This document shows, piece by piece, positions 9,095 to 49,534 of a DNA stretch of 64,000 nucleotides. The notes beneath the pieces are model-generated. The model ran no database searches. It was not told the origin of the DNA and saw nothing but the letters and a program-made list of their open reading frames with translations. The translations under genes and the position numbers were made by a program. How positions within the stretch are numbered: the first letter of the stretch is position 1; the number at the start of each line of letters is the position of its first letter. Source of the DNA: an uncultured Candidatus Saccharibacteria bacterium (lineage in GTDB: Bacteria; Patescibacteriota; Minisyncoccia; Phycocordibacterales; UBA1006); the NCBI GenBank assembly GCA_964601935.1, contig CAZROP010000001.1, positions 98,428-162,427 on the forward strand, in the 5' to 3' direction.

Positions 9095-9691
9095 CTAGGA
9101 GACTACGACAGGTATCCTGACCAAGATTTTTCGTTCCACCAGATTAGGATCTGACAATAGAGGCTTCATAAGGCTGGCAGAATCAGATTCACAAATACTA
9201 TACCCATACGCTTCGAGCATATATCCTGTCTCAATCTCTCGCGTCACCAGGTTGGCCCACGTAGCATCTGCTGTAATGACCACAACGCCACATGCAGATG
9301 ATTCACCCCCGCCCGAACTTGCAGTCCAAGGTATGTTAGGTACAGACCATCCCACCCCTACAGATACAGGTACTGTGTTACGAAAATCAAAATAGTAAAC
9401 TTCCTTGAGAGGGTCCGATAGTTGATCTGTTCGCACAACGCCACCGCAACTAAATGTTGCAGCATCTGGATAAATTTTTGCGAGTCCGCACTCCATCCCT
9501 GTATCAGCAGCTGCAAATGCAGATTGTGTTTCTGACTGAATAGAGCCCAACTGGGATTGTCGCGTAGAGGACAGTAATAAGGAAACTGATATACCTACTG
9601 TAACTGATATGACAACAATGGTAAACAACAGAATAAATCCATTCTGTTTTGGTATATTTCGTAAAGATTGTAATAAGTGTATATTCTTCAT
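9095..9691 (-). CDS. Type IV pilin-like / minor pseudopilin protein
   Basis: The N-terminus KQNGFILLFTIVVISVTVGISVSLL resembles a degenerate class III signal (G-F-hydrophobic stretch). It is the last gene of the pilin cluster. Confidence 0.45.
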   Translation of the reverse strand: MKNIHLLQSLRNIPKQNGFILLFTIVVISVTVGISVSLLLSSTRQSQLGSIQSETQSAFAAADTGMECGLAKIYPDAATFSCGGVVRTDQLSDPLKEVYYFDFRNTVPVSVGVGWSVPNIPWTASSGGGESSACGVVVITADATWANLVTREIETGYMLEAYGYSICESDSASLMKPLLSDPNLVERKILVRIPVVVS

Positions 9692-9694
9692 ATG

Positions 9695-10321
9695 TTACCC
9701 TGTTGGACCAGGTGTTGGGCCAGGTCCCGGTCCGGGGTCTGGGAGAGGTGTAGTTGGTGTCAAATCCTGCTCTTCATACCAAGGACGGAATTCTTTGGTT
9801 AATACAATCTGTTTCTGTATCAATGCATCCGACGTGGTGTACCATACAACAGCACGCACAAATACACCGTTATCATTCAGTCCTGTAGGTTTTATATATA
9901 GGATTCGACGAAAAGAAGTCGCCTCTGTAGTTGTTGCATTATTGGTAAAATTTACCACCACTCCTGCTGCAGAAGGAATATTCTTTACTCTGGCACAGTC
10001 GCCCGCAGGATTTGTACAGGCTGCGAGTGTAACTGTACTCGCCACAGCATCAGTGTAGTCAATACGGCAGCCTTGACCACAAGGTTTTATCATCCCAAAA
10101 GGGCTGGCGATATTTCCTGCTAATACCTCGGACATAATGAGCTGTTGAGCAATCTCTATCGCTTCCACCGCCAAAAATTCTGCCTGGACTCGCCGCTCCG
10201 CCTCACGCGAGTTCACTGTCGTGCGTGAAGTAATCAGCGTCAAAGCACCCAACGATAATGTCAGTGCCAATATGGCAACTAGTGTTTCTATCAAAGTAAA
10301 TCCTCGTAGTTTAGTTCTCAT
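9695..10321 (-). CDS. Type IV pilin-like protein (prepilin N-terminal cleavage/methylation domain)
   Basis: MRTKLRGFTLIETLVAILALTLSLGAL is the canonical G|FTLIE prepilin motif followed by a hydrophobic helix. The C-terminus is Pro/Gly-rich (PDPGPGPGPTPGPTG). Confidence 0.65.
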   Translation of the reverse strand: MRTKLRGFTLIETLVAILALTLSLGALTLITSRTTVNSREAERRVQAEFLAVEAIEIAQQLIMSEVLAGNIASPFGMIKPCGQGCRIDYTDAVASTVTLAACTNPAGDCARVKNIPSAAGVVVNFTNNATTTEATSFRRILYIKPTGLNDNGVFVRAVVWYTTSDALIQKQIVLTKEFRPWYEEQDLTPTTPLPDPGPGPGPTPGPTG

Positions 10322-10326
10322 ACAAT

Positions 10327-10926
10327 TTATATAGGTGAATCAATATCTAGTTGCCGTTGTGTTAGTGTAGTCTGTAGCGGTACAACGAACTCAACCCCTT
10401 TATAAGAATATACGATCTGCATACGCAAACTCACATATGGTTGCTTTACATCGCTAGTACCTACACCTCGGGCAATAAACCCAAAAGTCTTGAATTTTAA
10501 GGAGTAATCATCGTGGAGCTTTTTGTAAGCTTCATTTCCTATTTTCCTCTCTACTACATAATAGTTTGTGCTAGGAACCTGTACAACACGCAGGCGGATC
10601 GAGCGCCCATCCTGGTCACGATAAGCAAATCCAGGAACAGCTACAGATGCACACGTTGAAATATCTACCGTAGTACCTGTTGCGTCAGCACATTCATATT
10701 CAGAACCCATACGAATAGAACGACTAAGCGAGTCCAGCAAAAAATAAGCAGACTGAATGGATTGATCTTTTATACGAACACGCTTTGCAGCAGCATCCAT
10801 AGTAACCACAGAAAGTACACCCAGAGAGATCGTGGTAATGAAAATTGTCATAGATACCAAAACCTCAATCAAGGTAAACCCTGCAGCTATACGAATATTT
10901 TGGTTAGTCTTAAGAGAAAAATTCAT
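10327..10926 (-). CDS. Type IV pilin-like protein (prepilin N-terminal domain)
   Basis: N-terminal ...RIAAGFTLIEVLVSMTIFITTISLGVL is a prepilin peptidase-dependent class III signal. Confidence 0.65.
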   Translation of the reverse strand: MNFSLKTNQNIRIAAGFTLIEVLVSMTIFITTISLGVLSVVTMDAAAKRVRIKDQSIQSAYFLLDSLSRSIRMGSEYECADATGTTVDISTCASVAVPGFAYRDQDGRSIRLRVVQVPSTNYYVVERKIGNEAYKKLHDDYSLKFKTFGFIARGVGTSDVKQPYVSLRMQIVYSYKGVEFVVPLQTTLTQRQLDIDSPI

Positions 10927-10933
10927 ATACTTG

Positions 10934-11578
10934 TTAGCGGACGAAAATGTTTCCTGACGGTTCTATGACGACATATCGATATATCGTACCGTTACCTGAT
11001 GCAGACTCCAGTTGAATTACAGCTGGTTTACCAGCCAACACACCGCGATATGCTGACTCAACAATAGGGTCCGACGCCAGACGAGAAAACTCTATTGAAG
11101 TACTCGTTCCATAGGTAGAGCAGACCCCTGGAGTGACATAATCTACTGTAGTGCACAGGCGCGCTGAGATATTGGTTGCTGCAAGATTTTTTACCTCTAC
11201 AGGAACATCACTGCCCGATTGATACCCTGCTGCTAGATTTACACCACGGTATACGGTTAACTTTGATATCTTACCTCCAGAAACATCGAACTGAACACCG
11301 CTACGCACACGATCGTTACCTGCCAGCATTTCTCCTGTCGTAGAGAAGTCAGTGATTCCCTGGCCTGCAGTACGCCCACCCACCTGGGCCAAATGAATCA
11401 TATTTGCAATATCCAATGCGCTAGCGGACAAGACAACTGACTCACGTGACCCGCGATAATTAAATAAAACCACTGTAGAACTCACCACAACTAGCGCCAT
11501 AACAACGATCAGCTCTGTCAGAGTAAAGCCTTTCACCTTCTGAAGAGAATGATTGTTTCTAGGATACACAGGCGACAT
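10934..11578 (-). CDS. Type IV pilin-like protein (prepilin N-terminal domain)
   Basis: The MSPVYPRNNHSLQKVKGFTLTELIVVMALVVVSST motif is present. The start is chosen at the internal Met at 11578; the ORF track extends it to 11644. Confidence 0.6.
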   Translation of the reverse strand: MSPVYPRNNHSLQKVKGFTLTELIVVMALVVVSSTVVLFNYRGSRESVVLSASALDIANMIHLAQVGGRTAGQGITDFSTTGEMLAGNDRVRSGVQFDVSGGKISKLTVYRGVNLAAGYQSGSDVPVEVKNLAATNISARLCTTVDYVTPGVCSTYGTSTSIEFSRLASDPIVESAYRGVLAGKPAVIQLESASGNGTIYRYVVIEPSGNIFVR

Positions 11579-11729
11579 GCATAGAAAAAATGCGCGGGAG
11601 AATATATTATGGCATCCTGCCACTTTGTGCGATTTCTCATTCATATATTCATAGTATCACGTACACCACCTACCCAACAACGAGCTAGTGCACAGAGCGG
11701 ACATCGGGGGCAGGGTTTCATAGACCCTA

Positions 11730-12512
11730 TTAGACAAAGATGAGCATGCCCTGGAGTGATAACCACCAAGTAATAACAAATCCCGCTATTAAACAAGGTC
11801 CGTACGCAATAGGGCGTGATAGACGCTGTGATTTTCCCGAATGATAATCTTTCCACATCAACACACATGCATAACCTAACCCTATCCACGTGGAAAATAA
11901 CAATGTGAACAACGCCCCCTGCCATGTACCGATCACTACTGATAGTCCCAGTAATAATAACGGGTCTCCTAATCCCATTGCGCGCCCACGTGACAGAGCA
12001 ACAATGGTGAACAGTAGTAGCGCAGGAATAGCAAGATATACATATCCCATAACTGTATGCACAATTCCTAATTCAGGTAGCGCTACAAACCGATATATGA
12101 CACCTATACACAATAAAGCAATTAGATAATCCAATGGCAAAAAATGTGACCGAGCATCATAGATTGTTAACACTGCGCATATTGATATAACAATACAGCC
12201 AAACACCAGCGTTACAGGATCAGGCGACACTAACCCTTGTATACCAAACAGCAGCCCCATGACTACCTCAACCCATAGAGCAGTCTTACCTATACGAGAT
12301 TCGCAGGATCGACATCGTCCACGCAACCGCAGATATGACCAAATTGGCACGAGATCACGCACCTCGATCTGTGTACCACATCGGTCACAGCGGGAACGTC
12401 CCTGCAAAGTACGCACCCCCATGCGAGATGTTACGACCAACAGAAAACTCCCCATGATAGATCCTAGTCCGAAGAGAAATACAAATTTTATAATCTCAAA
12501 AATACTATCCAT
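11730..12512 (-). CDS. pilD: Prepilin peptidase (A24 / PilD family)
   Basis: 260 aa polytopic membrane protein with an N-terminal tetra-Cys zinc-binding region (CDRCGTQ...CRSCES), typical of PilD. It lies between pilin genes. Confidence 0.8.
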   Translation of the reverse strand: MDSIFEIIKFVFLFGLGSIMGSFLLVVTSRMGVRTLQGRSRCDRCGTQIEVRDLVPIWSYLRLRGRCRSCESRIGKTALWVEVVMGLLFGIQGLVSPDPVTLVFGCIVISICAVLTIYDARSHFLPLDYLIALLCIGVIYRFVALPELGIVHTVMGYVYLAIPALLLFTIVALSRGRAMGLGDPLLLLGLSVVIGTWQGALFTLLFSTWIGLGYACVLMWKDYHSGKSQRLSRPIAYGPCLIAGFVITWWLSLQGMLIFV

Positions 12513-12514
12513 AT

Positions 12515-13090
12515 TTAGTATGCGGCAGGCGCAACCACATCGTAATAATCTGCGCCAAAGTCACCGTTGTTTACCAGTACTCCACCCCCACAACGTTGCC
12601 ACCCAAATGCAGCCTTTGAATCCGCCCAACTCTGTCCACGTTTTTGTGCACGACTGATAGGAACTGCCATAGCATCAGACATTTTTATGCCCAAGTGAAA
12701 ACTGGTACAACGATTACTGCTCACAGCCCCTGCGGATCCTGAACGGACCAGTGCATAATACGACACGATGTTAGGATCGAATATAAAACCTGGCGGCAAT
12801 AGTGATCCCAGCGTCACACCTCCTGGGCACACACCTCCATTTACTCCCGGCAGACCATTCGACGCATTGATGTCGAGCTTGCCAGCAGGATTGTCTTTTG
12901 GATAACTACGGCACCGTTCACGGTACTGATAGAGTGACTGTTCGATAATACCTATATTTGCTGCGAGTTTTTCATCTTGAGATCGTCGACGAATACTAGC
13001 AATGTTGGGCAACACGACTGCCAAAAGTGCTCCGATTACAGCAGCAACAATCAGTATTTCTATCATAGTAAATCCACGCAAGTATTTCAT
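12515..13090 (-). CDS. Type IV pilin (candidate major pilin, PilA-like)
   Basis: MKYLRGFTMIEILIVAAVIGALLAVVLP is a textbook prepilin leader with G|FTMIE. It is the first gene of the cluster and has a short leader. Confidence 0.7.
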   Translation of the reverse strand: MKYLRGFTMIEILIVAAVIGALLAVVLPNIASIRRRSQDEKLAANIGIIEQSLYQYRERCRSYPKDNPAGKLDINASNGLPGVNGGVCPGGVTLGSLLPPGFIFDPNIVSYYALVRSGSAGAVSSNRCTSFHLGIKMSDAMAVPISRAQKRGQSWADSKAAFGWQRCGGGVLVNNGDFGADYYDVVAPAAY

Positions 13091-13186: not shown

Positions 13187-15223
13187 TTAATTCAAAGACA
13201 AGGTATAGTAGGTAGTTTCGAATGCGTTTGCAGGATTCAGTGTTTGAGGATTCGCACCCTGAGTCAACGAAGAATCAGCAAATGTTTGAACCTGATTTAC
13301 CTGGACTCGGTACAGATTAGTATTGTGTCCTGCTGTTCCTGTCAGAACGATGTTTAGGATAAATTGACGCTCCGTGCTTGGATCAATACGGAATGCTCCA
13401 TTCTGCACCGGAGTACCTGCTGAAGACAACGTTGCAGAGTACGGAATTGACTTTGTCGCACCCAACACATCTTCGAACGTGAAGGTAACTGCGCTCGTAC
13501 CACTTGCAGTGATGCCGTTCTGAGCAATCTGAGAAATGAATGCAGTCTCGTCAAAGGCGCGAATATTTACTGGAATGGTGATGGTTCGTGTTAGTGTATC
13601 GCCTGAGCCGTTTGAGGTTGAAGTTGTCGAAACTCCACCCATAGCCACCTGAACACCGAGCGAACGCAATGTCTGATCACTACCCGTTGCTGACCCGCTA
13701 CGATTGTACACGGTATCCTCATTAACATTATTCAGCTCTATTACTGATGCTGAAACGTTTGCAGAAGTATAGTCTGCACGGATAGTGTCCCCCTCGTCGA
13801 ATTCGGTAGTAACATTTCCTGTTGCTGACTCGACATCATTCAGGTCAGCGCGAATTTCGAATCGTGTAGTACTATTAGCACCTACAACCTGATTCAATCT
13901 ACTGTACTGACCGAATGTAACAGTTTGTATACTGGATCCGCTTGGTATTGATTCGCTAGCAACATAAGTACCATTGACGTATAGATACAGTGTTTTTACG
14001 AGCGCTTCGACATTCGGAACAACACCTGTAGTACTGTTCGCTGTCAGAGTGATCGGCAAACGCTGAACCTTCATAGAGCTATTCTCTGCACGAACATCGA
14101 ATGCCAGCAGCAACTGACCGTTCGTAGGTGAGGTGCGGGATACCTGGAGTGTTTGTGCTACAGGACTATTAGACGCAGTAGTCACGCGGTAACGCTGATC
14201 CGATGATGTTCCTCCAGCACGCTGGAAGTCGACATTCGATGTATAGGTACTACCTGTTGAATCAGAGCCATAATCACGGTAACGTCCATTTGCAGATGCT
14301 GCGCTGATAAAGTTACCGTCGCCTATAGCAGTAGTTGAATTACCGAGTGATACAGCCCACGAATCATTGTCCGTATCTACACTGTCGATAACATTTTGTG
14401 CAGTTACTGAAACAATAATTTGGCTGCGCTGATCACGACGAACCACACCATTCATTCCGGTAAACCGGTAGGTATAGGTATCATTAGATTCGTCAGAATA
14501 CGCGCTTGCAGACTTGCTTCCGATCTTTACACCATCTAACCAGATAGATACCTCTGAAATGTATCGGGTAATTCTTTTGTTAGATAGGTTACTAGAATTA
14601 TAAAATGATACATTGATTCCATCTATACGCTGATCTCCATCACGGGCGGTCACCTCTACACCGAGTACACGTATATCGGTGTCACCTGCTGACACACGAG
14701 TGTTATTGTAAGAGCCCAATCGATTGAGAGCGACCAGAGTTCCCTCTGCACCAGAATTATAGTTGTAATAATTATTTGTGTTGTTCGTAGAAAACAGTGG
14801 CAGTGTACAGTTACTTGCCAATGTCATACCGTTGGGGCACAAAGACTGATTAGAATTTGAGTTATAGTACTGAGTAGTATATGAGCTATTACTATTATGA
14901 GTATAGTTGCCTGTGAATGGAGTAGTATCCTCGTCAAGACAATCATTCAACGCCTCTGCAGTAAGACGACCAACGTATCCAACAGGTGAAATGCCGTTCT
15001 CTCGCTGAAAACGACGTACTGCTGATGCGGTACGGCTACCCCAGCGCCCATCTACAACAAGGAATACATCAGTACACTGGTTCAGTGCGCTTTGCACCTC
15101 GGCAATACGGCTGCGGAATGACCCAGCACGCACTGTTGGTATGATCTCGGCAAAAACTGTTCCTGTAGACAGAAAGAGTCCTAGAAATGCTGCTAATACA
15201 AGTTTATTCGTAATTGATTTCAT
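13187..15223 (-). CDS. Secreted cell-surface protein, paralog 1: signal peptide, PG_binding_1-like domain, Cys-loop motif, large C-terminal domain
   Basis: 678 aa. Signal peptide MKSITNKLVLAAFLGLFLSTGTVFA. The DGRWGSRTASAVRRFQRENGISPVGYVGRLTAEALNDC segment fits the peptidoglycan-binding domain pattern. It has one LCPNGMTLASNCTLP motif and the conserved C-terminal end ...NAFETTYYTLSLN shared with paralogs 2 and 3. Confidence 0.8.
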   Translation of the reverse strand: MKSITNKLVLAAFLGLFLSTGTVFAEIIPTVRAGSFRSRIAEVQSALNQCTDVFLVVDGRWGSRTASAVRRFQRENGISPVGYVGRLTAEALNDCLDEDTTPFTGNYTHNSNSSYTTQYYNSNSNQSLCPNGMTLASNCTLPLFSTNNTNNYYNYNSGAEGTLVALNRLGSYNNTRVSAGDTDIRVLGVEVTARDGDQRIDGINVSFYNSSNLSNKRITRYISEVSIWLDGVKIGSKSASAYSDESNDTYTYRFTGMNGVVRRDQRSQIIVSVTAQNVIDSVDTDNDSWAVSLGNSTTAIGDGNFISAASANGRYRDYGSDSTGSTYTSNVDFQRAGGTSSDQRYRVTTASNSPVAQTLQVSRTSPTNGQLLLAFDVRAENSSMKVQRLPITLTANSTTGVVPNVEALVKTLYLYVNGTYVASESIPSGSSIQTVTFGQYSRLNQVVGANSTTRFEIRADLNDVESATGNVTTEFDEGDTIRADYTSANVSASVIELNNVNEDTVYNRSGSATGSDQTLRSLGVQVAMGGVSTTSTSNGSGDTLTRTITIPVNIRAFDETAFISQIAQNGITASGTSAVTFTFEDVLGATKSIPYSATLSSAGTPVQNGAFRIDPSTERQFILNIVLTGTAGHNTNLYRVQVNQVQTFADSSLTQGANPQTLNPANAFETTYYTLSLN

Positions 15224-15514
15224 AGATAAGTAATTAGTGTTAACTCCAGACTAGTAGTTGTCTCGAGGTTGTGGCACACAAGAGAGAGTTTATCACGTTT
15301 GGTGATCAGCCTGCACTCTGCAATGCCTTACCCCAAAGAAGACGTATTTACTAGGGATAAACGACGGTTATCTGTGGATAATCGGGTTGATAAGGGCTAT
15401 ACAATACCTTTTTAGACCTAACTACCCGTTTCAGACCATCTGGTTGTGTATAATACACCATTATACTAGATATGTCAATTTGTGCGCGGCCCACCAACAG
15501 AAGCATAGTTTCCG

Positions 15515-15547
15515 TCCAAACAAAAACCCCGCCGAAGCGGGGTTTTG
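15515..15547 (-). terminator. Rho-independent terminator after paralog 2 (near-identical to the one after paralog 3)
   Basis: ACAAAAA-CCCCGCCGAAGCGGGG-TTTT: a GC hairpin flanked by an A-run and a T-run, so it could act in both directions. Confidence 0.7.
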
Positions 15548-15589
15548 AGATTATCTCCAGAGAACTAGAGAGTCTTATCTGGCTCAAGA

Positions 15590-17662
15590 CTAATTGAGAT
15601 TCAGAGTATAGTATGAAGTTTCAAATGCATTCACTGGAGTCAGATCCTGTAAGGCCTGTCCGGTAGTCAATGAACTATTACTATAACTGTTGATCTTGTT
15701 CAGCTGTACACGGTACTGCTTTTGGGAGTTGCCTGTAGTTCCACTAATTACCACTGTCAAGATAAAGTTTTTCGTACTACCGGCGTCTACACGGTATGCG
15801 CTACCCTCTACGGTTGCATTTGATGATGTCCAGGTAGCAGAGTTAGGGATAACCTTTGTAGAACCAACGGCATCCTCGAATGTAAATGCGAGAGCCTCTG
15901 TGCCAGCAGGTGTTAACCCATTATATGCTATCTGAGATAGATATGCGGTTTCATCGAATGCTTTTACAGTTACAGGTACCCTGATAGTACGCGACAGAAC
16001 TTCGCCAGAATTATTCGCGGTCGCCTCTGTTGTTGCAGCACCCATCGTCACCTGTAAACCAGTCGAACGCAGTGTTTGGTTCTCTCCTGTAGCTGAACCT
16101 GAGCGATTCATCAGAGTATCCTGGTTAACATTGTCCAATTCCACAACAGTGTTAGTGAGATTGGTTGGGGTAAAGCTCGCAGCAATCTTATCTCCGTTGT
16201 CGAAGTCTGTTCCAAGGACACCAGTGTTCTCAGTGTCATTGAGGTCAGCACGAACTTCAAACTTTACAGTTGCGTTTGATGCAATCTTGTAGTTCAACTT
16301 TGATGAGTTACCAAAGATGATTGTCTCTGTAGCAGAGTCAGTTCCATCCTGTGGTACTGATTCATCAGCGATCTTTACACCGTTAGCATAAAGCTTTAAT
16401 GACTTTACGATACCGTTTGTGTAAGGAACGAATCCATCAGATGTTCCGTCAACTGCACCTAGAGTAACAGGGAGTTTCTGGAGAATCATTGCAGCATTTT
16501 CAGCCTTTACATCCATAGCTAACAGCAGTACATCATTAGTATCCGCGGTCTGGGACACTTGTACAGTTTGGGATGCTGGGTTCGACGACGACGTTACCAC
16601 ACGGAATCTTTGATCTGATGATACACCTCCAGCCTTCTGGAAGTCGATAGTAGAAGCCGAGAGATCGCCACCAAAATCACGATAACGTCCATTTGCAGAT
16701 GCAGCTGATAGGTAGTTGGAATTTGTTCCTGCCACTATTGCGCCCGCCTCTACCATCCAAACTTCGTTGTTCGCATCGGCAGAATCCATAGATCCTGCAC
16801 CCGTGACGGCGACTGTTATTTGTGACTTCTGACCAGCTCTGATCAAACCATTCATGCTTGAGAATCGGTATGTGTAGGTGTCTCCAGAATCATCTGAATA
16901 CTGTGAAGCCAGCTTGCGGCCGATTTCTACTCCATCCAACCAGATTGATACATCTGACGCGTACTTGGTAATTCGAGTACTTCCTGTACCAGTATTCTTG
17001 AACGCGATGTTCAATCCATCAATGCGCTGGTCTCCATCTCGAGCTGTTACCTCAACTCCATAGACTTTGATATCTCGCTCACCTTCAGAAACCTTGGTGT
17101 TGTTATATGAACCAAGTTTTGTGATATTGGTAAGACTGCCTTCGGGACCGTTGGTAGTTTGAGTACTATTGTTTGGGGACAATGTGCAGTTACTTGCCAA
17201 TGTCATACCGTTGGGACAGAGCTGTACAGTAGTATTGTTCCCTGGTGACAAGGTACAGTTACTAGCGAGAGTCATACCATTAGGACACAGTGACACTGAC
17301 GTCGAACCAGGCATCAATAGACAATTACTTGCTACTGTTGCTCCGTTAGAACAGAGTGCCGGACTTGGATCTGGCTGATTTGCGTCCCAACAATCGTTGA
17401 GGGCATTGGCGGTGCGCGCACCGATAATTCCATCAGCTACGAGATCATTCTCGTTTTGAAACTTTTTGACTGCTGCAAGAGTCTTTGGACCCCACAGACC
17501 GTCAACTTTCAAATTCATATCCAAACAACTATTTAAAATTGCCTGAACTTCGCCGACTCGTGTTTTGGACGAACTTGCACGCACTGTAGGTATAACTTCT
17601 GCGAAGGCATTGCCGACAACAAGAAATACTCCTAAAAATGTTGCTAATAGTAATTTTTTCAT
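15590..17662 (-). CDS. Secreted cell-surface protein, paralog 2: signal peptide, PG_binding_1-like domain, three CxNGxxxASNC repeats
   Basis: 690 aa. Signal peptide MKKLLLATFLGVFLVVGNAFA. PG-binding-like segment DGLWGPKTLAAVKKFQNENDLVADGIIGARTANALNDC. Three copies of LCPNGMTLASNCTLSP. The C-terminal domain shares a 101 aa block identical to paralog 3. Confidence 0.85.
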   Translation of the reverse strand: MKKLLLATFLGVFLVVGNAFAEVIPTVRASSSKTRVGEVQAILNSCLDMNLKVDGLWGPKTLAAVKKFQNENDLVADGIIGARTANALNDCWDANQPDPSPALCSNGATVASNCLLMPGSTSVSLCPNGMTLASNCTLSPGNNTTVQLCPNGMTLASNCTLSPNNSTQTTNGPEGSLTNITKLGSYNNTKVSEGERDIKVYGVEVTARDGDQRIDGLNIAFKNTGTGSTRITKYASDVSIWLDGVEIGRKLASQYSDDSGDTYTYRFSSMNGLIRAGQKSQITVAVTGAGSMDSADANNEVWMVEAGAIVAGTNSNYLSAASANGRYRDFGGDLSASTIDFQKAGGVSSDQRFRVVTSSSNPASQTVQVSQTADTNDVLLLAMDVKAENAAMILQKLPVTLGAVDGTSDGFVPYTNGIVKSLKLYANGVKIADESVPQDGTDSATETIIFGNSSKLNYKIASNATVKFEVRADLNDTENTGVLGTDFDNGDKIAASFTPTNLTNTVVELDNVNQDTLMNRSGSATGENQTLRSTGLQVTMGAATTEATANNSGEVLSRTIRVPVTVKAFDETAYLSQIAYNGLTPAGTEALAFTFEDAVGSTKVIPNSATWTSSNATVEGSAYRVDAGSTKNFILTVVISGTTGNSQKQYRVQLNKINSYSNSSLTTGQALQDLTPVNAFETSYYTLNLN
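16169..16480. repeat. 312 bp block essentially identical to 19049-19360 (one mismatch; 302 bp perfectly identical from 16179)
   Basis: Direct comparison in the sequence. The two copies are offset by exactly 2880 bp and fall inside paralogs 2 and 3, whose flanking sequence is only about 70-75% identical. Confidence 0.9.
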
Positions 17663-17910
17663 AGTGATAAGTTATTACTTATTTCTGGTAGTCCCAGGCC
17701 AAACAAAAAATATATGGCCTGAATTGGCACGAGTGAGGTGACCGACGAGACCTGATCACTGGCGCCTATACTAATATAGACGCTTCTTGTAGGTCGCTGT
17801 GACGGTTTATACAACAGAAGTTATGTAGTGTAACATATAAAGAGAAAGTCAATGGGCGGATTCGCTTTATAGTATTGGCGTTCGAGCCCCTCTCCTTTTA
17901 GGAGAGTATA

Positions 17911-18241
17911 TTAGGTAGAATACTGATCTCCATCGATGAACATCGTATTCTCACCGAACAAAACCATCGAGGCAGTAGCGACAATAGCGTCTAGCTTTGA
18001 CTCTGCACCATCTGCGGGTTGTATTTGAATTCCTTGCGACTCTCTCAGCAAATTATAAACCCTTAAAGTTTCTATGGAATCGAGTAGTCGATATTTCTTT
18101 CTTACCTTGGTCATAGAGCTTCAGCGATTCAAGTACTTTTCCATGTTTATCGATCTGTTGTCTTACAACAAAAGCCACATCATTATCATGTGACGATTTA
18201 GTTCGAAATTTATTCCATACGGTTCGGACAATGTTTACCAT
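17911..18241 (-). pseudogene. Two overlapping small ORFs (62 aa and 67 aa) in different frames; possibly a frameshifted single gene of about 120 aa
   Basis: ORFs 18053..18241 and 17911..18114 overlap by 62 nt near a TTTCTTTCTT run. Neither has recognisable homology. Confidence 0.25.
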
Positions 18242-18387
18242 AACAGTATTATACTACCTTGTTCGGGTAATCTCAATAGTCTTTCTAATCCCTGGGCTTT
18301 GCATAGAAAAATATAGTCGCTGTGCTCCTTGTTCTTACAATCCCCAACGCCTGGAGGCTCGAGGATGATAGGAAAGAAAGGGTTAGT

Positions 18388-18420
18388 AACAAAAACCCCG
18401 CCGGAGCGGGGTTTTTTGTT
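18388..18420 (-). terminator. Rho-independent terminator after paralog 3
   Basis: AACAAAAA-CCCCGCCGGAGCGGGG-TTTTTTGTT. The stem differs from the 15527-15542 hairpin by a single loop nucleotide. Confidence 0.7.
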
Positions 18421-18463
18421 GTAACTCGTACGAGTTCAGACTAACCAATTATCAAGGTAACGA

Positions 18464-20437
18464 TTACGCGTTTGTCTTGTTAAGAGTGTAGAATGGAGTC
18501 TCGAATCCGTTAGCAGGAGTCAATGACTGTAGAGCCTGACCTGCGTTCATAGCAGCGTTTGTCCAACCATTAACCTGGTTCAACTGAATACGGAACTGGT
18601 TCTGAACCTGTCCTGTTGCTCCAGTTAGAACTACAGTCAACAAGAAGTTCTTTGTAGAACCAGCGTCGATACGATATGCACTTCCTTCTACTGTAGCATC
18701 AGTTGATGTCCATGTAGCAGAGTTAGTGATAGTTTCTGTAGCTGCGCCAGCGTCTTCAAATGTGAATGCGATAGCGTTTGTTCCAGTTGCTGTTGCTCCG
18801 TTCAGAGCAGCCTGAGATACATACATAGTCTCGTCAAACGCAGTGATTGATACTGGAACCTTGATTGTACGGTTCAGGATTTCACCACTTGTGTTTGATG
18901 TAGCTTCTGTAGTAGTAGTTCCCATAGTGATCTGCATACCAGTTGATCGCAATGTCTGGTTTTCACCAGTTGCTGATCCTGACTTGTTCGCTACAGTATC
19001 CTGGTTGAAGTTATCCAACTCGATAGTAGCGTTAGTCATGTTTGTTGAGGTAAAGCTTGCAGCAATCTTATCTCCGTTGTCGAAGTCTGTTCCAAGGACA
19101 CCAGTGTTCTCAGTGTCATTGAGGTCAGCACGAACTTCAAACTTTACAGTTGCGTTTGATGCAATCTTGTAGTTCAACTTTGATGAGTTACCAAAGATGA
19201 TTGTCTCTGTAGCAGAGTCAGTTCCATCCTGTGGTACTGATTCATCAGCGATCTTTACACCGTTAGCATAAAGCTTTAATGACTTTACGATACCGTTTGT
19301 GTAAGGAACGAATCCATCAGATGTTCCGTCAACTGCACCTAGAGTAACAGGGAGTTTCTGAACGATCATAGCTCCGTTCTCAGCCTTTGCGTCGAGAGCT
19401 AACAACAATACGTCATTAGTGTCTGAAGTCTGAGAGACCTGAATAGTTCGCTCAAGTGGGTTAGTTGATGAAGTGATCACCTTGAACTTCTGGTCAGATG
19501 ACGCACCTCCAGCCTTCTGGAAGTCGATAGTTGATGCAGCCAAAGCTGGACCAAAATCACGGTAACGTCCATTTGCAGATGCTGCAGAGATGTAGTTAGT
19601 AGTGTTAGCAGATACGTTTGTTCCTGCATCTACGGTCCATGTCTCGTTAGTAGCATCAGTAGAATCCAGAGAACCTGTTGCTGTTACAGCAACGATCAAC
19701 TGTGACTTCTGATTCATCTTAACAACACCATTCATTCCAGAGAATCGGAATGTATAGATGTCTCCGGCATCACCAGAGAACTGAGATGCAAGCTTGCGGC
19801 CGATTTCTACACCATCCAACCAGATTGATACCTCAGAAGCGTATTTTGTAAACTTCTTTGATGAAGATCCGTTAGAGTTGTAGAAAGCAACATTGAATCC
19901 GTCGATCTTCTGATCGCCGTCCTTTGCAGTCAATTCTACTCCATACACCTTAACGTCCTTGTCTCCTTCAGATACTTTCGTACTGTTGTAAGAACCAAGA
20001 CGAACAATGTTTGAGAGGTTTCCTTCTGGACCACTTACTGTTGTAGTAGTAGTGGTAGTTGGAGCAACTGTACAGTTACTTGCCAATGTCATGCCATTAG
20101 GGCAGAGGTCAGAGGTAGTAGTTGTAGTTGTGGTAGTAGTAGTTGTACTGTCACCATCTACACAGTCGTTAAGAGCTGCTGCAGTTAGTGGACCAACAAA
20201 TCCTACTTTTGATAGATCGTTATCAGCCTGGAAAGCCTTTACAGCTGCAGTAGTTTTTGCACCCCACAGACCGTCTTCAACCAATCCAGCGTCTGAACAT
20301 TCGTTCAGAGCAGCCTGAACTGCTTCAACACGAGCACGTGATGAGCCTTTCTTTACCGTAGCGGTAATTTCTGCAAAAGCAGATGTTGAAACTCCGAGAG
20401 CCAACAATGCCGCGATTGCCATTACGTTTTTTGACAT
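18464..20437 (-). CDS. Secreted cell-surface protein, paralog 3: signal peptide, PG_binding_1-like domain, poly-Thr linkers, Cys-loop motif
   Basis: 657 aa. Signal peptide MSKNVMAIAALLALGVSTSAFA. PG-binding-like segment DGLWGAKTTAAVKAFQADNDLSKVGFVGPLTAAALNDC. Poly-Thr runs of 11 and 8 residues flank LCPNGMTLASNCTVAP. The C-terminal end ...NGFETPFYTLNKTNA is conserved. Confidence 0.85.
   Translation of the reverse strand: MSKNVMAIAALLALGVSTSAFAEITATVKKGSSRARVEAVQAALNECSDAGLVEDGLWGAKTTAAVKAFQADNDLSKVGFVGPLTAAALNDCVDGDSTTTTTTTTTTTSDLCPNGMTLASNCTVAPTTTTTTTVSGPEGNLSNIVRLGSYNSTKVSEGDKDVKVYGVELTAKDGDQKIDGFNVAFYNSNGSSSKKFTKYASEVSIWLDGVEIGRKLASQFSGDAGDIYTFRFSGMNGVVKMNQKSQLIVAVTATGSLDSTDATNETWTVDAGTNVSANTTNYISAASANGRYRDFGPALAASTIDFQKAGGASSDQKFKVITSSTNPLERTIQVSQTSDTNDVLLLALDAKAENGAMIVQKLPVTLGAVDGTSDGFVPYTNGIVKSLKLYANGVKIADESVPQDGTDSATETIIFGNSSKLNYKIASNATVKFEVRADLNDTENTGVLGTDFDNGDKIAASFTSTNMTNATIELDNFNQDTVANKSGSATGENQTLRSTGMQITMGTTTTEATSNTSGEILNRTIKVPVSITAFDETMYVSQAALNGATATGTNAIAFTFEDAGAATETITNSATWTSTDATVEGSAYRIDAGSTKNFLLTVVLTGATGQVQNQFRIQLNQVNGWTNAAMNAGQALQSLTPANGFETPFYTLNKTNA
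19049..19360. repeat. Second copy of the identical 312 bp block (see 16169-16480)
   Basis: Base-for-base identity with 16179-16480 apart from one position. Confidence 0.9.
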
Positions 20438-21127
20438 ATATATAGAATAATAAATTAGATCTAATTAACTATTAAAGTTACGGTTAAGGTAACTAATAAT
20501 TTTGGTATTCTCGGTATCATTGCTGATACTGATAGCACCGGGTGTACAACGTGATACATGTTATCGGTCATGAGGCGACACCATGAACCAAGTTCTAACA
20601 GACATATTATGATGGGCGCGGTGCATGCCACAGAAGGTTGTCAGAAATCGGAAAGGTGTATGCAATCCGAAAGTCATTCAATCATCTGCAGCAGCGCCAC
20701 ACCAACACCAGTCCTATGACTGTTAGTAACGTGGTCCATATTATGTATACCGATCCAATAACACCACCACAGAGTACGAGTTGTTAAACAAGTTTTGTGT
20801 GCATAGTATAACTGTTACTCACAGCGCAACTATGCAGTACGCAGTGATGAAATAATTCCATTAACTTGTTCAGTTTCGGGGACACATTCAGTGCATTGAA
20901 TAGGTCAGACACTCTATATAGAGACAGCCGCAGCCAGCCCAATATACAGCGATGAGAATAGTATAGGTGACGAATGTCATCTATGCAAGCCTATCTGCCA
21001 GTAACATATCCACATTTCTGTGGACACCACTGAGCATGAACAGATTCCCACAACGATGAAGACGTACTGAATTCAACAATCTGACGAATAATTTTTTCCG
21101 TCTTCCAGACGCAGCGATAGCAGAGAT

Positions 21128-21156
21128 CTGGGATCCAGGATTCAATATACTTACAA
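21128..21156 (+). repeat. 29 bp direct repeat, copy A (CTGGGATCCAGGATTCAATATACTTACAA)
   Basis: 27/29 identical to 22347-22375. The two copies bracket the winged-helix protein gene, spaced 1219 bp apart. Confidence 0.8.
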
Positions 21157-21245
21157 CACAAAAGTTTATTTTCCTGCCCCTGAATTCTAGCTCGGAGACT
21201 AGGAAAACAAGGCGACATGAAACCTTAGGAAAGCTTGACCACCAA

Positions 21246-22364
21246 CTACACCACAGCCTCATACCGTGACCAGCGACGATCACCGTGGCGCACGATTGCC
21301 CCATCACTGAGTAAATCTATCAAAGCACGCTGCAGTGTCTTGTCAGAAGTTCCCGGAACGCCATCTGCGATCTCCTTGATCGATACAATACCATGCTCAC
21401 GTATATAACGCAGTATCGTCGCCCGTCGTTGCTCTATAGATGAGGGCAGTCCTGATTGTGGGCGCGGACGAGCCTCCAAACGAACCGAATTCTGCATGGA
21501 TCCCGTGAATGGGGGCTGCGCAGGATTACTGGATTCCGACAGGTTTTCTCCATACAAAGTATCCACCTGCTGCCCTGCTGCCCCTTCTCTACTACCGACC
21601 ACCTGTCCTGATTGGTCATCGCCATACTCAGGACGCACCTCCCTATCGAATGCACGTTCCGCCAATTCGTAATCCGGCGTTGCCACCAACGGAGATGAGA
21701 CATGCTTGCGTGTGGCGCGATCTGCAGTATCAGACGATTTGGAGCGCGAGCGCTTATCCATCGCGGGCTCGGAATCGAATAGCTCCATCATTTTCAGACG
21801 AATATCCTGTCGGTCGCGCGCTGCACCTGTTGCAGTATTCACGTCTCCTCGCACCAACATCATCGTGACGAAACGTGTCAGTTTTGTCAGCTCACGCTCT
21901 ATCAGCAACCCATTGATATCCGATATCGTACCTGTCGCACGCGCCACAGATATATAGGACATTATCTTATCGGACACAGTGAGTACGTGGTTCAATAGGA
22001 CAAACGGGGCCTGTGCCTTGTGTTCGTATGCGACAGCTATCAAATCATCTGCTGCAAGTCTCAAGGACACTTTCAGAGAAGTGTCATCCGACATGTGCTG
22101 AGTAACCAAATAGACACCCGTCGATATACGACGTGACATATCCGACAGTGATCGAGTCATATCGTCCTCTCGGCGAGAGAATGAATCAGAGATCATTTTG
22201 ATATCCGACATTATTTTCGCAACAATTGCCTGGTCATCGCTATTCATATAGCTGCCATTATGGCGCATAACTGTGGAAAAGTCTATTATACCTCCGCGAC
22301 AGGACGTGGTGGAATGATGACCTCTTCCATCTTCCCACACCCCGAGCTGGGACCCAGAATTCAA
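21246..22364 (-). CDS. Hypothetical protein with a C-terminal winged-helix DNA-binding domain
   Basis: 372 aa. The C-terminus RRATILRYIREHGIVSIKEIADGVPGTSDKTLQRALIDLLSDGAIVRHGDRRW is HTH/winged-helix-like. The track uses a TTG start at 22364 inside direct repeat copy B; the true start may be an internal Met. Confidence 0.5.
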   Translation of the reverse strand: MNSGSQLGVWEDGRGHHSTTSCRGGIIDFSTVMRHNGSYMNSDDQAIVAKIMSDIKMISDSFSRREDDMTRSLSDMSRRISTGVYLVTQHMSDDTSLKVSLRLAADDLIAVAYEHKAQAPFVLLNHVLTVSDKIMSYISVARATGTISDINGLLIERELTKLTRFVTMMLVRGDVNTATGAARDRQDIRLKMMELFDSEPAMDKRSRSKSSDTADRATRKHVSSPLVATPDYELAERAFDREVRPEYGDDQSGQVVGSREGAAGQQVDTLYGENLSESSNPAQPPFTGSMQNSVRLEARPRPQSGLPSSIEQRRATILRYIREHGIVSIKEIADGVPGTSDKTLQRALIDLLSDGAIVRHGDRRWSRYEAVV

Positions 22365-22375
22365 TATACTTACAA
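22347..22375 (+). repeat. 29 bp direct repeat, copy B (CTGGGACCCAGAATTCAATATACTTACAA)
   Basis: See copy A. Confidence 0.8.
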
Positions 22376-22583
22376 AACTAGTGACTATCTTTCTAGTCCT
22401 GGATCACGGATCCCTGAGGCCCCGAGATGACGGAAACTTTGTGTTTTCAGGCAACTCTCTCCTTTGTAGGACGTGCAAAATAATGAGCGCTAGCGAGTAT
22501 GTTTTTGATGCTTGCGGGTGAGGTCTCTTTAACCATTCTATTCACACCACACCTGCCCAATACCCCAAAGATTACTGACGATA

Positions 22584-24914: not shown

Positions 24915-25362
24915 TCACTGGCTCGCGATAGCTCGCACATGTTTGGTGATAGTGGGTATATTACTGATTGCATTCGTTGTAATGCAGTTTCGATCTGCAT
25001 GGCAAGGTCCTCTGATTTATATAGACTACCCCGTATCAGGGGAAACCGTATCATCTCCTATAATTACCATACGCGGATCAACCGCAAACGTAGCCCAGCT
25101 CTTTATCAATGGAGTTATTACTCCGGTAGAACTTTCTACCGAAAGATTTGTGTTCGAAACAGCGCTTCCTCCAGGAGCCAGCAATATCACCCTGGATGGG
25201 TATACGCGATCAGGTGATCACACACGGACCCTGGTACCTATATACTACAAACCACCTAATCTGATACGAACACTGTCCCCCGACTTAGAAGCAGTCTCGA
25301 ACCTCAATATTATCGAAACCCCGTTCCGCCCAACGAGCGATATCTTCGATGCTATACAGTAA
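24880..25362 (+). CDS. Hypothetical membrane-anchored protein
   Basis: An N-terminal TM segment ([21 protein letters not shown]) is followed by a soluble domain. It overlaps the ftsK 3' end in another frame, and the start is uncertain. Confidence 0.4.
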
Positions 25363-25465
25363 CCACTGTACTCTAAACGTAGACACGCTATCGAAACCAT
25401 ATCGAAATACTTTTCATGATATGTCTACATTGATGCACCCAACCTCTGTGTTAGAATGGAGGCAT

Positions 25466-26602
25466 ATGAAAAAATCCAAGAAACCAGCAAGTGCCGCTGA
25501 ATCACTCGAGAACGAGGAAGAATTACAGGATGAAAACACAGAGCATGCTGAAGATAGCGAAGATACTTCACCAGCAAAAAAAGGCAAAAAAGCCGGTCGA
25601 AATACTGATGACGATCTAGCGGATACACTCAAAATGCTCCAGACCAAATTCGGTGACGGCGCAATTATGAAATTAGGCGAAGCCCCAAAGGTGTCCGTCG
25701 GTGCAATTTCTACCGGATCACTCGGGCTCGATTCTGCACTGGGCGTAGGCGGCTTACCCAAGGGTCGCATCATAGAAATATTCGGACCTGAGTCATCTGG
25801 TAAAACGACCCTGACCTTGCATGTAATTGCCGAGGCACAAAAAGCTGGCGGTGTATGCGCATTTATCGATGCTGAACACGCGCTCGACCCCGACTATGCA
25901 AAGAAATTAGGAGTAAAAACCCACGAACTGCTGGTGTCTCAGCCAGACAACGGCGAACAAGCATTGGAAATTTGTGAATCGCTCGTACGCAGCGGAAAGA
26001 TTGATGTAGTAGTAGTAGACTCTGTCGCAGCTCTGACTCCCCGTGATGAGATCGAGGGCGAAATGGGTGCACATCATGTGGGCAAGCAGGCGCGATTGAT
26101 GTCACAGGCATTACGTAAATTGACTGCCATTGTATCAAAATCCCACACCATTGTTATATTCATCAACCAGATTCGTATGCAGATCGGCGTGATGTTCGGT
26201 AACCCAGAAACAACACCGGGCGGTAAAGCGTTAAAGTTCTACACTAGTGTTCGTATTGATATTCGCAAAACTGCCCAAATCAAAAAAGGTGAAGAAGTGG
26301 TCGGCGCTCGTACAAAAGTAAAGGTAGTGAAGAACAAAGTATCCTCCCCGTTCCGCTCTACAGAATTTGATATCTTGTACGGAGAAGGTATCAGTCGCGA
26401 GGGTGAATTGTTAGCGCTCGGCGAAAAGTACAAACTTCTAACAAAGGCAGGTGCATCCTACAGCTATACTGACAGCAAAGGTACTGAACACAAGCTGGGT
26501 CGAGGATATGACGCTGCTCGTACTACCCTGCGTGAACAAAAAGATATCCAAAAAGACCTGACCAAACGCATTCGCGATGAACTGGCAAAAGAGTACGTAT
26601 AA
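25466..26602 (+). CDS. recA: Recombinase RecA
   Basis: Walker A motif [12 protein letters not shown] plus characteristic RecA core motifs ([23 protein letters not shown]). The start is chosen at the ATG at 25466, which is preceded by GGAGG; the ORF track extends it to 25349. An N-terminal acidic extension is present. Confidence 0.93.
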
Positions 26603-49385: not shown

Positions 49386-49419
49386 ACAGGTCGGGTTTGC
49401 ATTCCGCTAATCCGACTTT
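49386..49419 (+). terminator. Hairpin plus T-run: first copy of the duplicated terminator-box module
   Basis: GGTCGG ... CCGAC followed by TTTTT. The conserved 47 nt box TTTTTATATGCTG..AAATACTCTGTCGT.CC.CCTACC.TTTTA follows it. Confidence 0.4.
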
Positions 49420-49534
49420 TTATATGCTGTTTTAAATACTCTGTCGTACCGCCTACCCTTTTACGATACTGACAGAATCTTTTATACACGTAGCTTTGTG
49501 TAAAGAATCACCTCTATCATAATAGAATAGATAC

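What the first reader, a model, noticed from the sequence alone, without database searches (positions are those of the whole stretch)
16169..16480. 302 bp perfectly identical tract shared by paralogs 2 and 3: a gene-conversion signature
16179-16480 and 19059-19360 are base-for-base identical, and the 312 bp block has a single mismatch. The sequence immediately flanking the block on both sides is only about 70-75% identical between the two genes. The tract encodes an identical 101 aa segment (KLPVTLGAVDGTSDGFVPYTNGIVKSLKLYANGVKIADESVPQDGTDSATETIIFGNSSKLNYKIASNATVKFEVRADLNDTENTGVLGTDFDNGDKIAASFT). Sharp identity boundaries inside diverged paralogs are the hallmark of recent non-reciprocal recombination, that is, cassette exchange among surface-protein genes.
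Basis: seen in the sequence. Interest (0 to 1): 0.7.

Follow-up and report, generated by a model that had tools for sequence, protein, structure and literature searches.

The report
Gene-conversion patch between tandem surface-protein genes
Two neighbouring, otherwise strongly diverged surface-protein genes of an uncultured ultra-small (Paceibacteria/CPR) bacterium share a 302-base stretch that is letter-for-letter identical, most likely because one gene recently copied this piece into the other; this is a clean but ordinary example of a well-known process.

Summary
Window 16179-16480 equals 19059-19360 exactly (302 nt). The 312-nt block 16169-16480 has one synonymous mismatch. Identity drops to about 0.70 immediately on both sides. 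Third-codon-position identity is 1.00 inside the tract and 0.3-0.6 outside. The next-longest exact run between the two genes is 27 nt (permutation P<1e-4, analytic about 1e-53).

The genes lie on the minus strand. p1, p2 and p3 are tandem paralogs. Each has a signal peptide, a PG_binding_1 domain, a Thr/Cys-rich linker and about 500 aa of Ig-like beta-sandwiches. The family was found only in Patescibacteria MAGs.

The best explanation is one recent non-reciprocal recombination event, with p3 as donor and p2 as acceptor. At synonymous codons the tract matches the p3 ortholog of a syntenic relative at p3-like levels (0.77, against 0.66 for p3 flanks and 0.49 for p2 flanks). Trees switch from (p3,P0004) and (p2,P0002) in the flanks to (p2,p3) in the tract.

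The same module is mosaic in two other lineages of the family. No silent cassettes were found, all three copies are full length, and the tract is not the hypervariable part. A programmed antigenic-variation system is therefore not supported. An assembly artefact cannot be excluded without reads. This is a new member of a known kind, of modest interest.

The parts
16169..16480 (-). Converted tract in p2, the inferred acceptor copy. 16179-16480 is identical to p3, and 16169-16177 is identical beyond one synonymous mismatch at 16178. It encodes p2 aa 395-498.
19049..19360 (-). Homologous tract in p3, the inferred donor copy. It encodes p3 aa 360-463.
15590..17662 (-). Paralog p2 (690 aa). It has a signal peptide, PG_binding_1, a linker with three copies of the LCPNGMTLASNC motif, and about 500 aa of tandem Ig-like beta-sandwiches.
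18464..20437 (-). Paralog p3 (657 aa). It has the same architecture as p2 and is the ortholog of P0004 (rA) in the syntenic relative L001.
13187..15223 (-). Paralog p1 (678 aa). It carries the other ('SG-type') version of the module. It is about 53% nt identical in the tract region and is not involved in the conversion.
25349..26602 (+). recA, listed as context only. The genome encodes the strand-exchange protein that gene conversion would need. Its involvement is inferred, not shown.

Best explanation
A single, evolutionarily recent, intragenomic gene conversion copied about 300 nt from p3 (18464-20437, minus strand) into the homologous position of its tandem paralog p2 (15590-17662). This overwrote p2's own version of the segment.

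The three paralogs encode secreted proteins that bind peptidoglycan through an N-terminal PG_binding_1 domain. A Thr/Cys-rich linker then displays three Ig-like beta-sandwich regions. The tract covers the last two-thirds of the middle sandwich.

Mechanistically (inferred), homologous pairing between the two genes, which lie 2.9 kb apart, was followed by RecA-type strand invasion and repair synthesis or heteroduplex repair using p3 as template. This left p3 unchanged and p2 chimeric.

Shown: the identity island, its statistical significance, the p3-lineage origin of the tract, the protein architecture, and mosaicism of the same module in other family members. Inferred: the enzymology, the recency in absolute time, the surface location, and any selective benefit. 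On the evidence here the event is a sporadic concerted-evolution event in a mosaic surface-protein family, not the output of a dedicated variation machine.
For: 1. There are 302 identical nt with third-codon-position identity of 1.00, against 0.3-0.6 in the flanks. The flanks are 0.70 identical right up to the boundaries.
2. In the permutation test the observed run is 135 polymorphic sites against a maximum of 17 in 10,000 permutations. The analytic P is about 1e-53.
3. NJ bootstrap support in the flanks is (p3,P0004) 89% and (p2,P0002) 98%. In the tract it is (p2,p3) 96%, (p2,p3,P0004) 90%, and 0% for both flank groupings.
4. For direction, synonymous-codon identity of the tract to rA is 72/93 = 0.77, where rA (P0004) is the p3 ortholog in the syntenic relative L001. 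This is indistinguishable from p3 flanks versus rA (203/306 = 0.66, P=0.055). It is far above p2 flanks versus rA (146/300 = 0.49, P=7.7e-7).
5. Both genes remain intact, in frame and collinear at a constant offset of 2880.
6. recA is encoded 5 kb away.
7. Older exchanges of the same module are visible in independent assemblies. P0012/P0014 and P0010/P0013 leave their 100%-supported flank clades and join the p2/p3 type in the tract. Recombination at this module is therefore a real property of the family.
Against: No read-level data are available, and no second strain of this organism exists in the databases searched. The p2 and p3 protein clusters have one member each on one contig, and exact look-ups found nothing further. 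The reality of both copies therefore rests on one assembly.

The flanks are only about 70% identical, with exact runs of 27 nt or less. That is poor substrate for RecA-dependent recombination unless p2's native tract was more similar, or mismatch repair is weak. P0002 suggests the native tract was about 80% identical.

The relative L001 has only two paralogs, so the age and origin of p2 are uncertain.
Confidence: 0.8

Rival explanations
1. Assembly, gap-filling or polishing artefact. The true p2 tract differs, and the assembler or polisher wrote p3 sequence into p2.
For: The source is a metagenome-assembled contig (NCBI, 377 kb) with a single representative in the protein collection. No reads or second strain are available. 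A 302-nt exact repeat is longer than typical k-mers and would need paired or long-read resolution.
Against: Assemblers normally break or collapse at repeats rather than paste a patch in frame into a 70%-identical paralog with both flanks preserved. Reads at 70-80% identity do not mis-map during polishing. Both ORFs are intact. One synonymous mismatch followed by 9 identical nt at the 3' edge looks biological. Independent assemblies show older exchanges of the same module.
Confidence: 0.08
2. Remnant rather than import. In this reading p2 arose as a recent duplicate of p3. Both of its flanks (about 1.2 kb 5' and 0.6 kb 3') were later replaced by homologous recombination with divergent alleles taken up from other strains. 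The 302 nt would then be the only untouched piece.
For: The syntenic relative L001 has no p2, so p2 could be young. The tract is of p3 lineage, which this model also predicts. The family is mosaic, and type IV pilus/competence-like genes are adjacent.
Against: It needs a duplication plus at least two independent imports with end points bracketing the same 302 nt, against one event for conversion. p2's flanks group with P0002 on both sides at 98% bootstrap, as expected for one old p2-type gene. The intergenic DNA around p2 and p3 shows no residual similarity, with offset identity of about 0.25.
Confidence: 0.05
3. Output of a dedicated, high-frequency antigenic or host-range variation system that shuffles cassettes among the three surface-protein genes. 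This is the stronger version of the first reader's interpretation.
For: The genes are tandem paralogs encoding surface proteins. The same module was exchanged repeatedly in the family. A conserved block (aa 376-395) lies immediately 5' of the tract.
Against: Only one tract is significant. p1-p3 shows none and p1-p2 shows only a 7-site run. No truncated or silent cassettes exist in 64 kb. All three copies are full length with signal peptides. The other tandem pairs, L001 and L009, show no identity islands. The tract is not the most variable region, since the C-terminal domain is. The event reduces p2/p3 difference.
Confidence: 0.06
4. Selection on a nucleotide-level element embedded in both genes, such as an RNA or a regulatory site, or a DGR template/variable repeat pair.
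For: None specific. CPR genomes often carry DGRs (own knowledge).
Against: The same region is only 87% identical in the ortholog rA and 53% in p1. There are no Rfam hits in the window. DGR TR/VR pairs differ at adenines, and one of them is non-coding or out of context. Here there are 0 differences in 302 nt, and both copies sit at homologous in-frame positions.
Confidence: 0.01

Closest known systems
Helicobacter pylori babA/babB (and sabA/sabB/hopQ) outer-membrane adhesin paralog gene conversion
   Same: Both involve full-length, expressed paralogous surface-protein genes. A segment of one is copied non-reciprocally into the other, producing chimeras with sharp identity boundaries. Neither has silent cassettes (PMC4552749, PMC3960876; retrieved, titles and abstracts only, the mechanism details are from own knowledge).
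   Different: The bab loci are dispersed rather than tandem. Their conversion has been observed experimentally and during infection and changes a known ligand specificity. Here there is one inferred event, in an uncultured Patescibacteria genome, in a wall-anchored Ig-like protein of unknown ligand.
Concerted evolution of duplicated bacterial genes by RecA-dependent gene conversion (e.g. tufA/tufB in Salmonella; own knowledge)
   Same: Both show intragenomic non-reciprocal homogenisation of paralogs, with synonymous sites homogenised too.
   Different: The tuf genes are kept nearly identical over their whole length by frequent conversion. Here the paralogs are saturated at synonymous sites, and only one 302-nt patch is homogenised.
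Cassette-based antigenic variation (Neisseria pilE/pilS, Borrelia vlsE, Anaplasma msp2, Mycoplasma genitalium MgPar; own knowledge)
   Same: Both involve non-reciprocal transfer of an internal segment of a surface-protein gene from a paralogous donor.
   Different: Those systems have one expression site plus many promoterless partial donors. They also show very high frequency, hypervariable target regions and often dedicated cis elements. None of these was found here.
Putative Paceibacterales S-layer proteins (signal peptide + anchor + multiple Ig-like domains) reported in bioRxiv 10.1101/2024.05.28.596244
   Same: They come from the same broad taxon and share the same general architecture logic.
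   Different: I could not compare sequences, because the paper's main text gives no accession. Lattice formation is untested, so this is a lead and not a membership claim.

Membership tests
Ectopic (interlocus) gene conversion between paralogs | Island of (near-)identity with sharp boundaries inside otherwise diverged paralogs, longer than chance allows | tested here: met
   There are 302 identical nt against about 0.70 identity in the flanks. The next-longest run is 27 nt. Permutation P<1e-4.
Ectopic (interlocus) gene conversion between paralogs | Synonymous sites homogenised as well, which excludes protein-level selection | tested here: met
   Third-position identity is 1.00 in the tract and 0.3-0.6 outside. 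Identical-codon fraction is 0.99 in the tract and 0.41-0.58 outside.
Ectopic (interlocus) gene conversion between paralogs | Phylogenetic incongruence between tract and flanks, with an identifiable donor lineage | tested here: met
   The synonymous-codon comparison to ortholog rA is.
Ectopic (interlocus) gene conversion between paralogs | Non-reciprocity: the donor is unchanged and both copies carry the same sequence | tested here: met
   Both copies are identical, and the tract has the p3-lineage signature. No copy of a p2-type tract remains in the window.
Ectopic (interlocus) gene conversion between paralogs | Both copies physically real in the genome, with reads spanning each | not testable with these tools
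   There are no reads, and the organism has a single assembly.
Programmed cassette-type antigenic variation system | One expression locus plus truncated or promoterless silent donor cassettes | tested here: not met
   Only three full-length copies with start codons and signal peptides are present. tblastn and blastn of the whole 64 kb window find no partial copies. The rest of the genome was not seen.
Programmed cassette-type antigenic variation system | The exchanged segment is the hypervariable, exposed region flanked by conserved blocks | tested here: inconclusive
   A conserved block lies at aa 376-395, directly 5' of the tract. However, the tract has average variability (0.4-0.7), and the C-terminal domain is more variable.
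Programmed cassette-type antigenic variation system | Multiple, population-variable tracts occurring at high frequency | not testable with these tools
   This needs reads or strains. Within the assembly only one significant tract exists.
Diversity-generating retroelement TR/VR pair | Repeat pair differing almost only at adenines of the template; the target is usually a C-terminal lectin-fold VR; a reverse transcriptase lies nearby | tested here: not met
   There are 0 differences in 302 nt, and the single mismatch in 312 nt is synonymous. Both copies lie at homologous internal positions of paralogs. The window was not scanned exhaustively for an RT.
PG_binding_1 (PF01471) peptidoglycan-binding proteins | Significant match to the Pfam model above the gathering score; three-helix fold | tested here: met
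S-layer protein | Forms a 2-D lattice; is the most abundant envelope protein | not testable with these tools
   Only the architecture is compatible: signal peptide, wall anchor, linker and Ig-like domains.

The most novel reading that the evidence does not exclude
The roughly 100-aa segment (p2 aa ~390-500, the C-terminal two-thirds of the middle Ig-like sandwich) may be a recurrently exchanged specificity module of the main wall-anchored surface protein of Paceibacteria. It exists in two ancient forms: the 'QDG type', with a 3-aa insertion, and the 'SG type'. It would be shuffled between paralogs and between lineages to change host-cell or phage interactions of these episymbionts. The p3-to-p2 conversion would then be the most recent instance, caught before any divergence.
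Probability: 0.15. Interest if true: 0.6.

Novelty: new member of a known kind. Interest (0 to 1): 0.3.

Why it matters
Gene conversion among bacterial surface-protein paralogs is textbook biology, so the event is not surprising in itself.

Its value is local. It is an unusually clean case, with zero substitutions and an inferable donor. It occurs in a candidate-phyla-radiation bacterium, a group for which I found no report of paralog gene conversion in the searchable literature. It shows that homologous recombination acts on sequences that are only about 70% identical in the flanks.

Together with the family-wide mosaicism, it flags a conserved, structurally confident surface-protein family as a recombining locus. 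The family architecture is PG-binding anchor plus Ig-like domains, and it sits next to type IV pilin genes. Such a locus could matter for host attachment or phage evasion in Paceibacteria.

The case also warns that short-read MAG assemblies of such loci need read-level validation.

Tried and rejected
- **Exact-sequence look-ups.** I looked up p2, p3 and P0001 to find the source contig or other strains. Nothing was on record. Cluster look-up gave no accession or name.
- **Collection scans.** Genome and metagenome scans with the family profile returned only 11 loci, mostly single-copy and distant. No close strain was found, so alternative tract boundaries could not be examined.
- **Identity islands in other tandem pairs.** I searched L001 rA/rB and L009. 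There were none, and the longest exact run was 19 nt.
- **Silent or partial cassettes in the window.** None were found.
- **Rfam and tRNA scans of the window.** There were no hits, so no embedded RNA element explains the identity.
- **Hybrid-gene idea for P0004.** I considered that the relative's single p3-like gene might be a p3/p2 unequal-crossover hybrid. The sliding-window nt data show it is p3-like or equidistant nearly throughout, with only a slight p2 lean at the extreme C-terminus. I did not pursue this.
- **L001 231-aa ORF.** I considered that it might be a degraded third paralog. It is a different small PG-binding protein.
- **Promoter and terminator scan.** Counts were no higher than in shuffled sequence. 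Individual sites upstream of p1 and p2 and downstream of p3 are suggestive only.

Full report
**Observation.** Window positions 16179-16480 and 19059-19360 are identical base for base (302 nt, constant offset 2880). In gene sense the genes are on the minus strand. The 5' boundary falls directly after two mismatched codons (CTC/GTT at 16481-16483). At the 3' end there is one synonymous mismatch (GCG/GCA, 16178), then nine more identical bases (16169-16177), and then ordinary divergence. blastn of the 312-nt block against the window finds only these two copies, at 100% and 99.7%. Identity in the 50-300 nt adjoining either side is 0.67-0.72. The quoted peptide is 103 aa rather than 101, and the identical protein segment is 104 aa: p2 Q395-T498 equals p3 Q360-T463.

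**More than chance or selection.** In a codon alignment, third-position identity between p2 and p3 is 0.2-0.7 everywhere outside the tract and 1.00 inside it. Among codons that encode the same amino acid, 99% are the same codon inside the tract, against 41-58% in the flanks. The next-longest exact run between p2 and p3 is 27 nt. Permuting the 1,037 polymorphic sites of the three-paralog alignment gives a maximum run of 17 p2=p3 sites in 10,000 permutations, against 135 observed. With 65% background identity, the analytic probability of a 302-nt run is about 1e-53. The same region is only 87% identical in the closest ortholog and 53% in p1, and Rfam finds nothing in the window. A conserved nucleotide-level element is therefore not the cause.

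**What the genes are.** Three tandem minus-strand ORFs are paralogs: p1 13187-15223, p2 15590-17662 and p3 18464-20437. Each starts with a Sec-type signal peptide (read from the sequence), followed by PG_binding_1 (PF01471, E 1e-9 to 2e-11). Next comes a low-complexity Thr-rich linker carrying one to three copies of an LCPNGMTLASNC motif. About 500 residues with no Pfam or NCBIfam match complete the protein.

Homologs are confined to Patescibacteria MAGs. Where a source name is given it reads Paceibacterota, Paceibacteria, 'Patescibacteria group' or Nomurabacteria. The neighbours are an HTH-like gene, ftsK and recA on one side. On the other side are four or five prepilin-type (N_methyl) genes, a prepilin peptidase and ligA. 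The most economical description is a non-covalently wall-anchored, Ig-like surface protein. An S-layer or adhesin role is plausible, because a survey paper reports a new S-layer class in Paceibacterales with this general logic (bioRxiv 10.1101/2024.05.28.596244). That role is untested.

**Direction and history.** A syntenic 423-kb contig from another metagenome (L001) has the same gene order but only two paralogs. These are rA (P0004; 74% aa identity to p3, 64% to p2) and rB (P0006; p1-like). Synonymous-codon identity of p3 to rA is uniformly 0.63-0.76 across segments. For p2 to rA it is 0.48-0.53, which is the paralog background. The tract scores 72/93 = 0.77 against rA. That is compatible with the p3 level (203/306; Fisher P=0.055) and incompatible with the p2 level (146/300; P=7.7e-7).

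Neighbour-joining bootstraps on 36 family members give (p3,P0004) 89% and (p2,P0002) 98% for the flanks. For the tract they give 0% for both of those groupings, with (p2,p3) 96% and (p2,p3,P0004) 90%. The tract is therefore p3-lineage sequence now also sitting in p2, so p3 is the donor and p2 the acceptor. P0002 is p2's closest relative in the flanks and is 80% nt and 85% aa identical to the tract. By inference, the conversion erased roughly 60 nucleotide and 15 amino-acid differences. With 0 differences in 302 nt, the event is very recent compared with the saturated synonymous divergence of the flanks.

**Is it a cassette system?** Several results argue against a dedicated variation machine.
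- Only this one tract is significant. p1-p3 shows none, and p1-p2 shows only a 7-site run near the signal peptide.
- All three genes are full length, and there are no partial or silent copies in the 64 kb window.
- The other tandem pairs available (L001, L009) have no identity islands.
- The tract is of average variability in the family, and the C-terminal domain is the most variable part.

Some results favour a recombination-prone module. A 'QDG-type' version of this segment (VPQDGTDSxxExIIFG, with a 3-aa insertion) occurs in p2, p3, P0002, P0004, P0005, P0010, P0013, P0012 and P0014. The flanks place P0012/P0014 with P0009/P0016/P0018/P0019 (100%) and P0010/P0013 with P0034 (100%). Both groupings fall to 0% in the tract. 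Sliding windows show that P0012 is p3-like only over aa ~392-471, and that P0010 is most strongly p3-like over aa ~382-511, although it is also closer to p3 than to P0034 across much of aa 172-351. A conserved block (aa 376-395) lies immediately 5' of the module. Because these older mosaics occur in independent assemblies, recombination at this module is a real property of the family. That raises the prior that the window's tract is biological.

**Rivals.**
- An assembly or polishing artefact cannot be excluded without reads, because the organism is represented by one assembly. It is mechanistically unlikely for a patch pasted in frame between 70%-identical flanks.
- In the 'remnant' model, p2 is a recent p3 duplicate whose two flanks were later replaced by imported alleles. 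It fits the absence of p2 in L001. However, it needs at least three events, and it is disfavoured because p2's flanks jointly group with P0002.
- A DGR or an embedded RNA is excluded by the pattern of identity.

**Verdict.** The gene-conversion interpretation is well supported and is refined here with a donor direction, a protein architecture and a family context. The 'cassette exchange' framing is only partly supported. This is a new example of a known process in a poorly studied phylum, of modest interest.

Noticed in passing
window 17162-17303 (p2), 20048-20120 (p3), 14783-14855 (p1): A Cys-bracketed linker motif, LCPNGMTLASNC, is present once in p1 and p3 and three times in p2, where two copies form a 69-nt tandem duplication. 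Its DNA is unusually conserved among the paralogs compared with the surrounding linker (repeat family D3). The motif also occurs in distant family members.
   Followed up: partly
family proteins P0002, P0004, P0023 (C-terminal domain), P0013 (inside the tract region), P0011: A roughly 20-25-aa Cys...Cys insert with the consensus C-x(4-6)-P-[YF]-x-[WG]-C-[TS]-G-x-G-x-G-T-x-P-T appears sporadically in homologs at two or more different positions. It behaves like a small mobile loop insertion (seen by eye).
   Followed up: no
L001:6900-14751 vs window 13187-22364: The syntenic relative has only two paralogs (p3-like and p1-like). It also has a separate 231-aa PG-binding protein between the HTH-like gene and rA that has no counterpart in the window. 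Copy number at this locus is therefore fluid.
   Followed up: partly
window 20115-20147: A run of 11 threonines in p3 is encoded by an imperfect ACN trinucleotide array (TRF period 3, 11 copies). This could allow in-frame linker length variation.
   Followed up: no
window 21125-21185 and 22344-22404: A 61-nt direct repeat (75% identity) brackets the HTH-like ORF 21246-22364 (family D5).
   Followed up: no
window 49416-49464 and 49732-49780: A 49-nt direct repeat at 88% identity, spaced 316 nt apart, lies at the 3' end of and just downstream of the minus-strand ORF 49725-51362 (family D6).
   Followed up: no
window 1-64000: There are no tRNA genes and no Rfam family at gathering threshold in the whole 64 kb.
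   Followed up: no
window 9095-13090: Directly downstream of p1 on the same strand lies a cluster of four N_methyl prepilin-like genes (9695-11644, 12515-13090), one unassigned 198-aa ORF (9095-9691) and a prepilin peptidase (11730-12512). The same juxtaposition is conserved in L001. This suggests a functional link between the surface proteins and type IV pili.
   Followed up: partly
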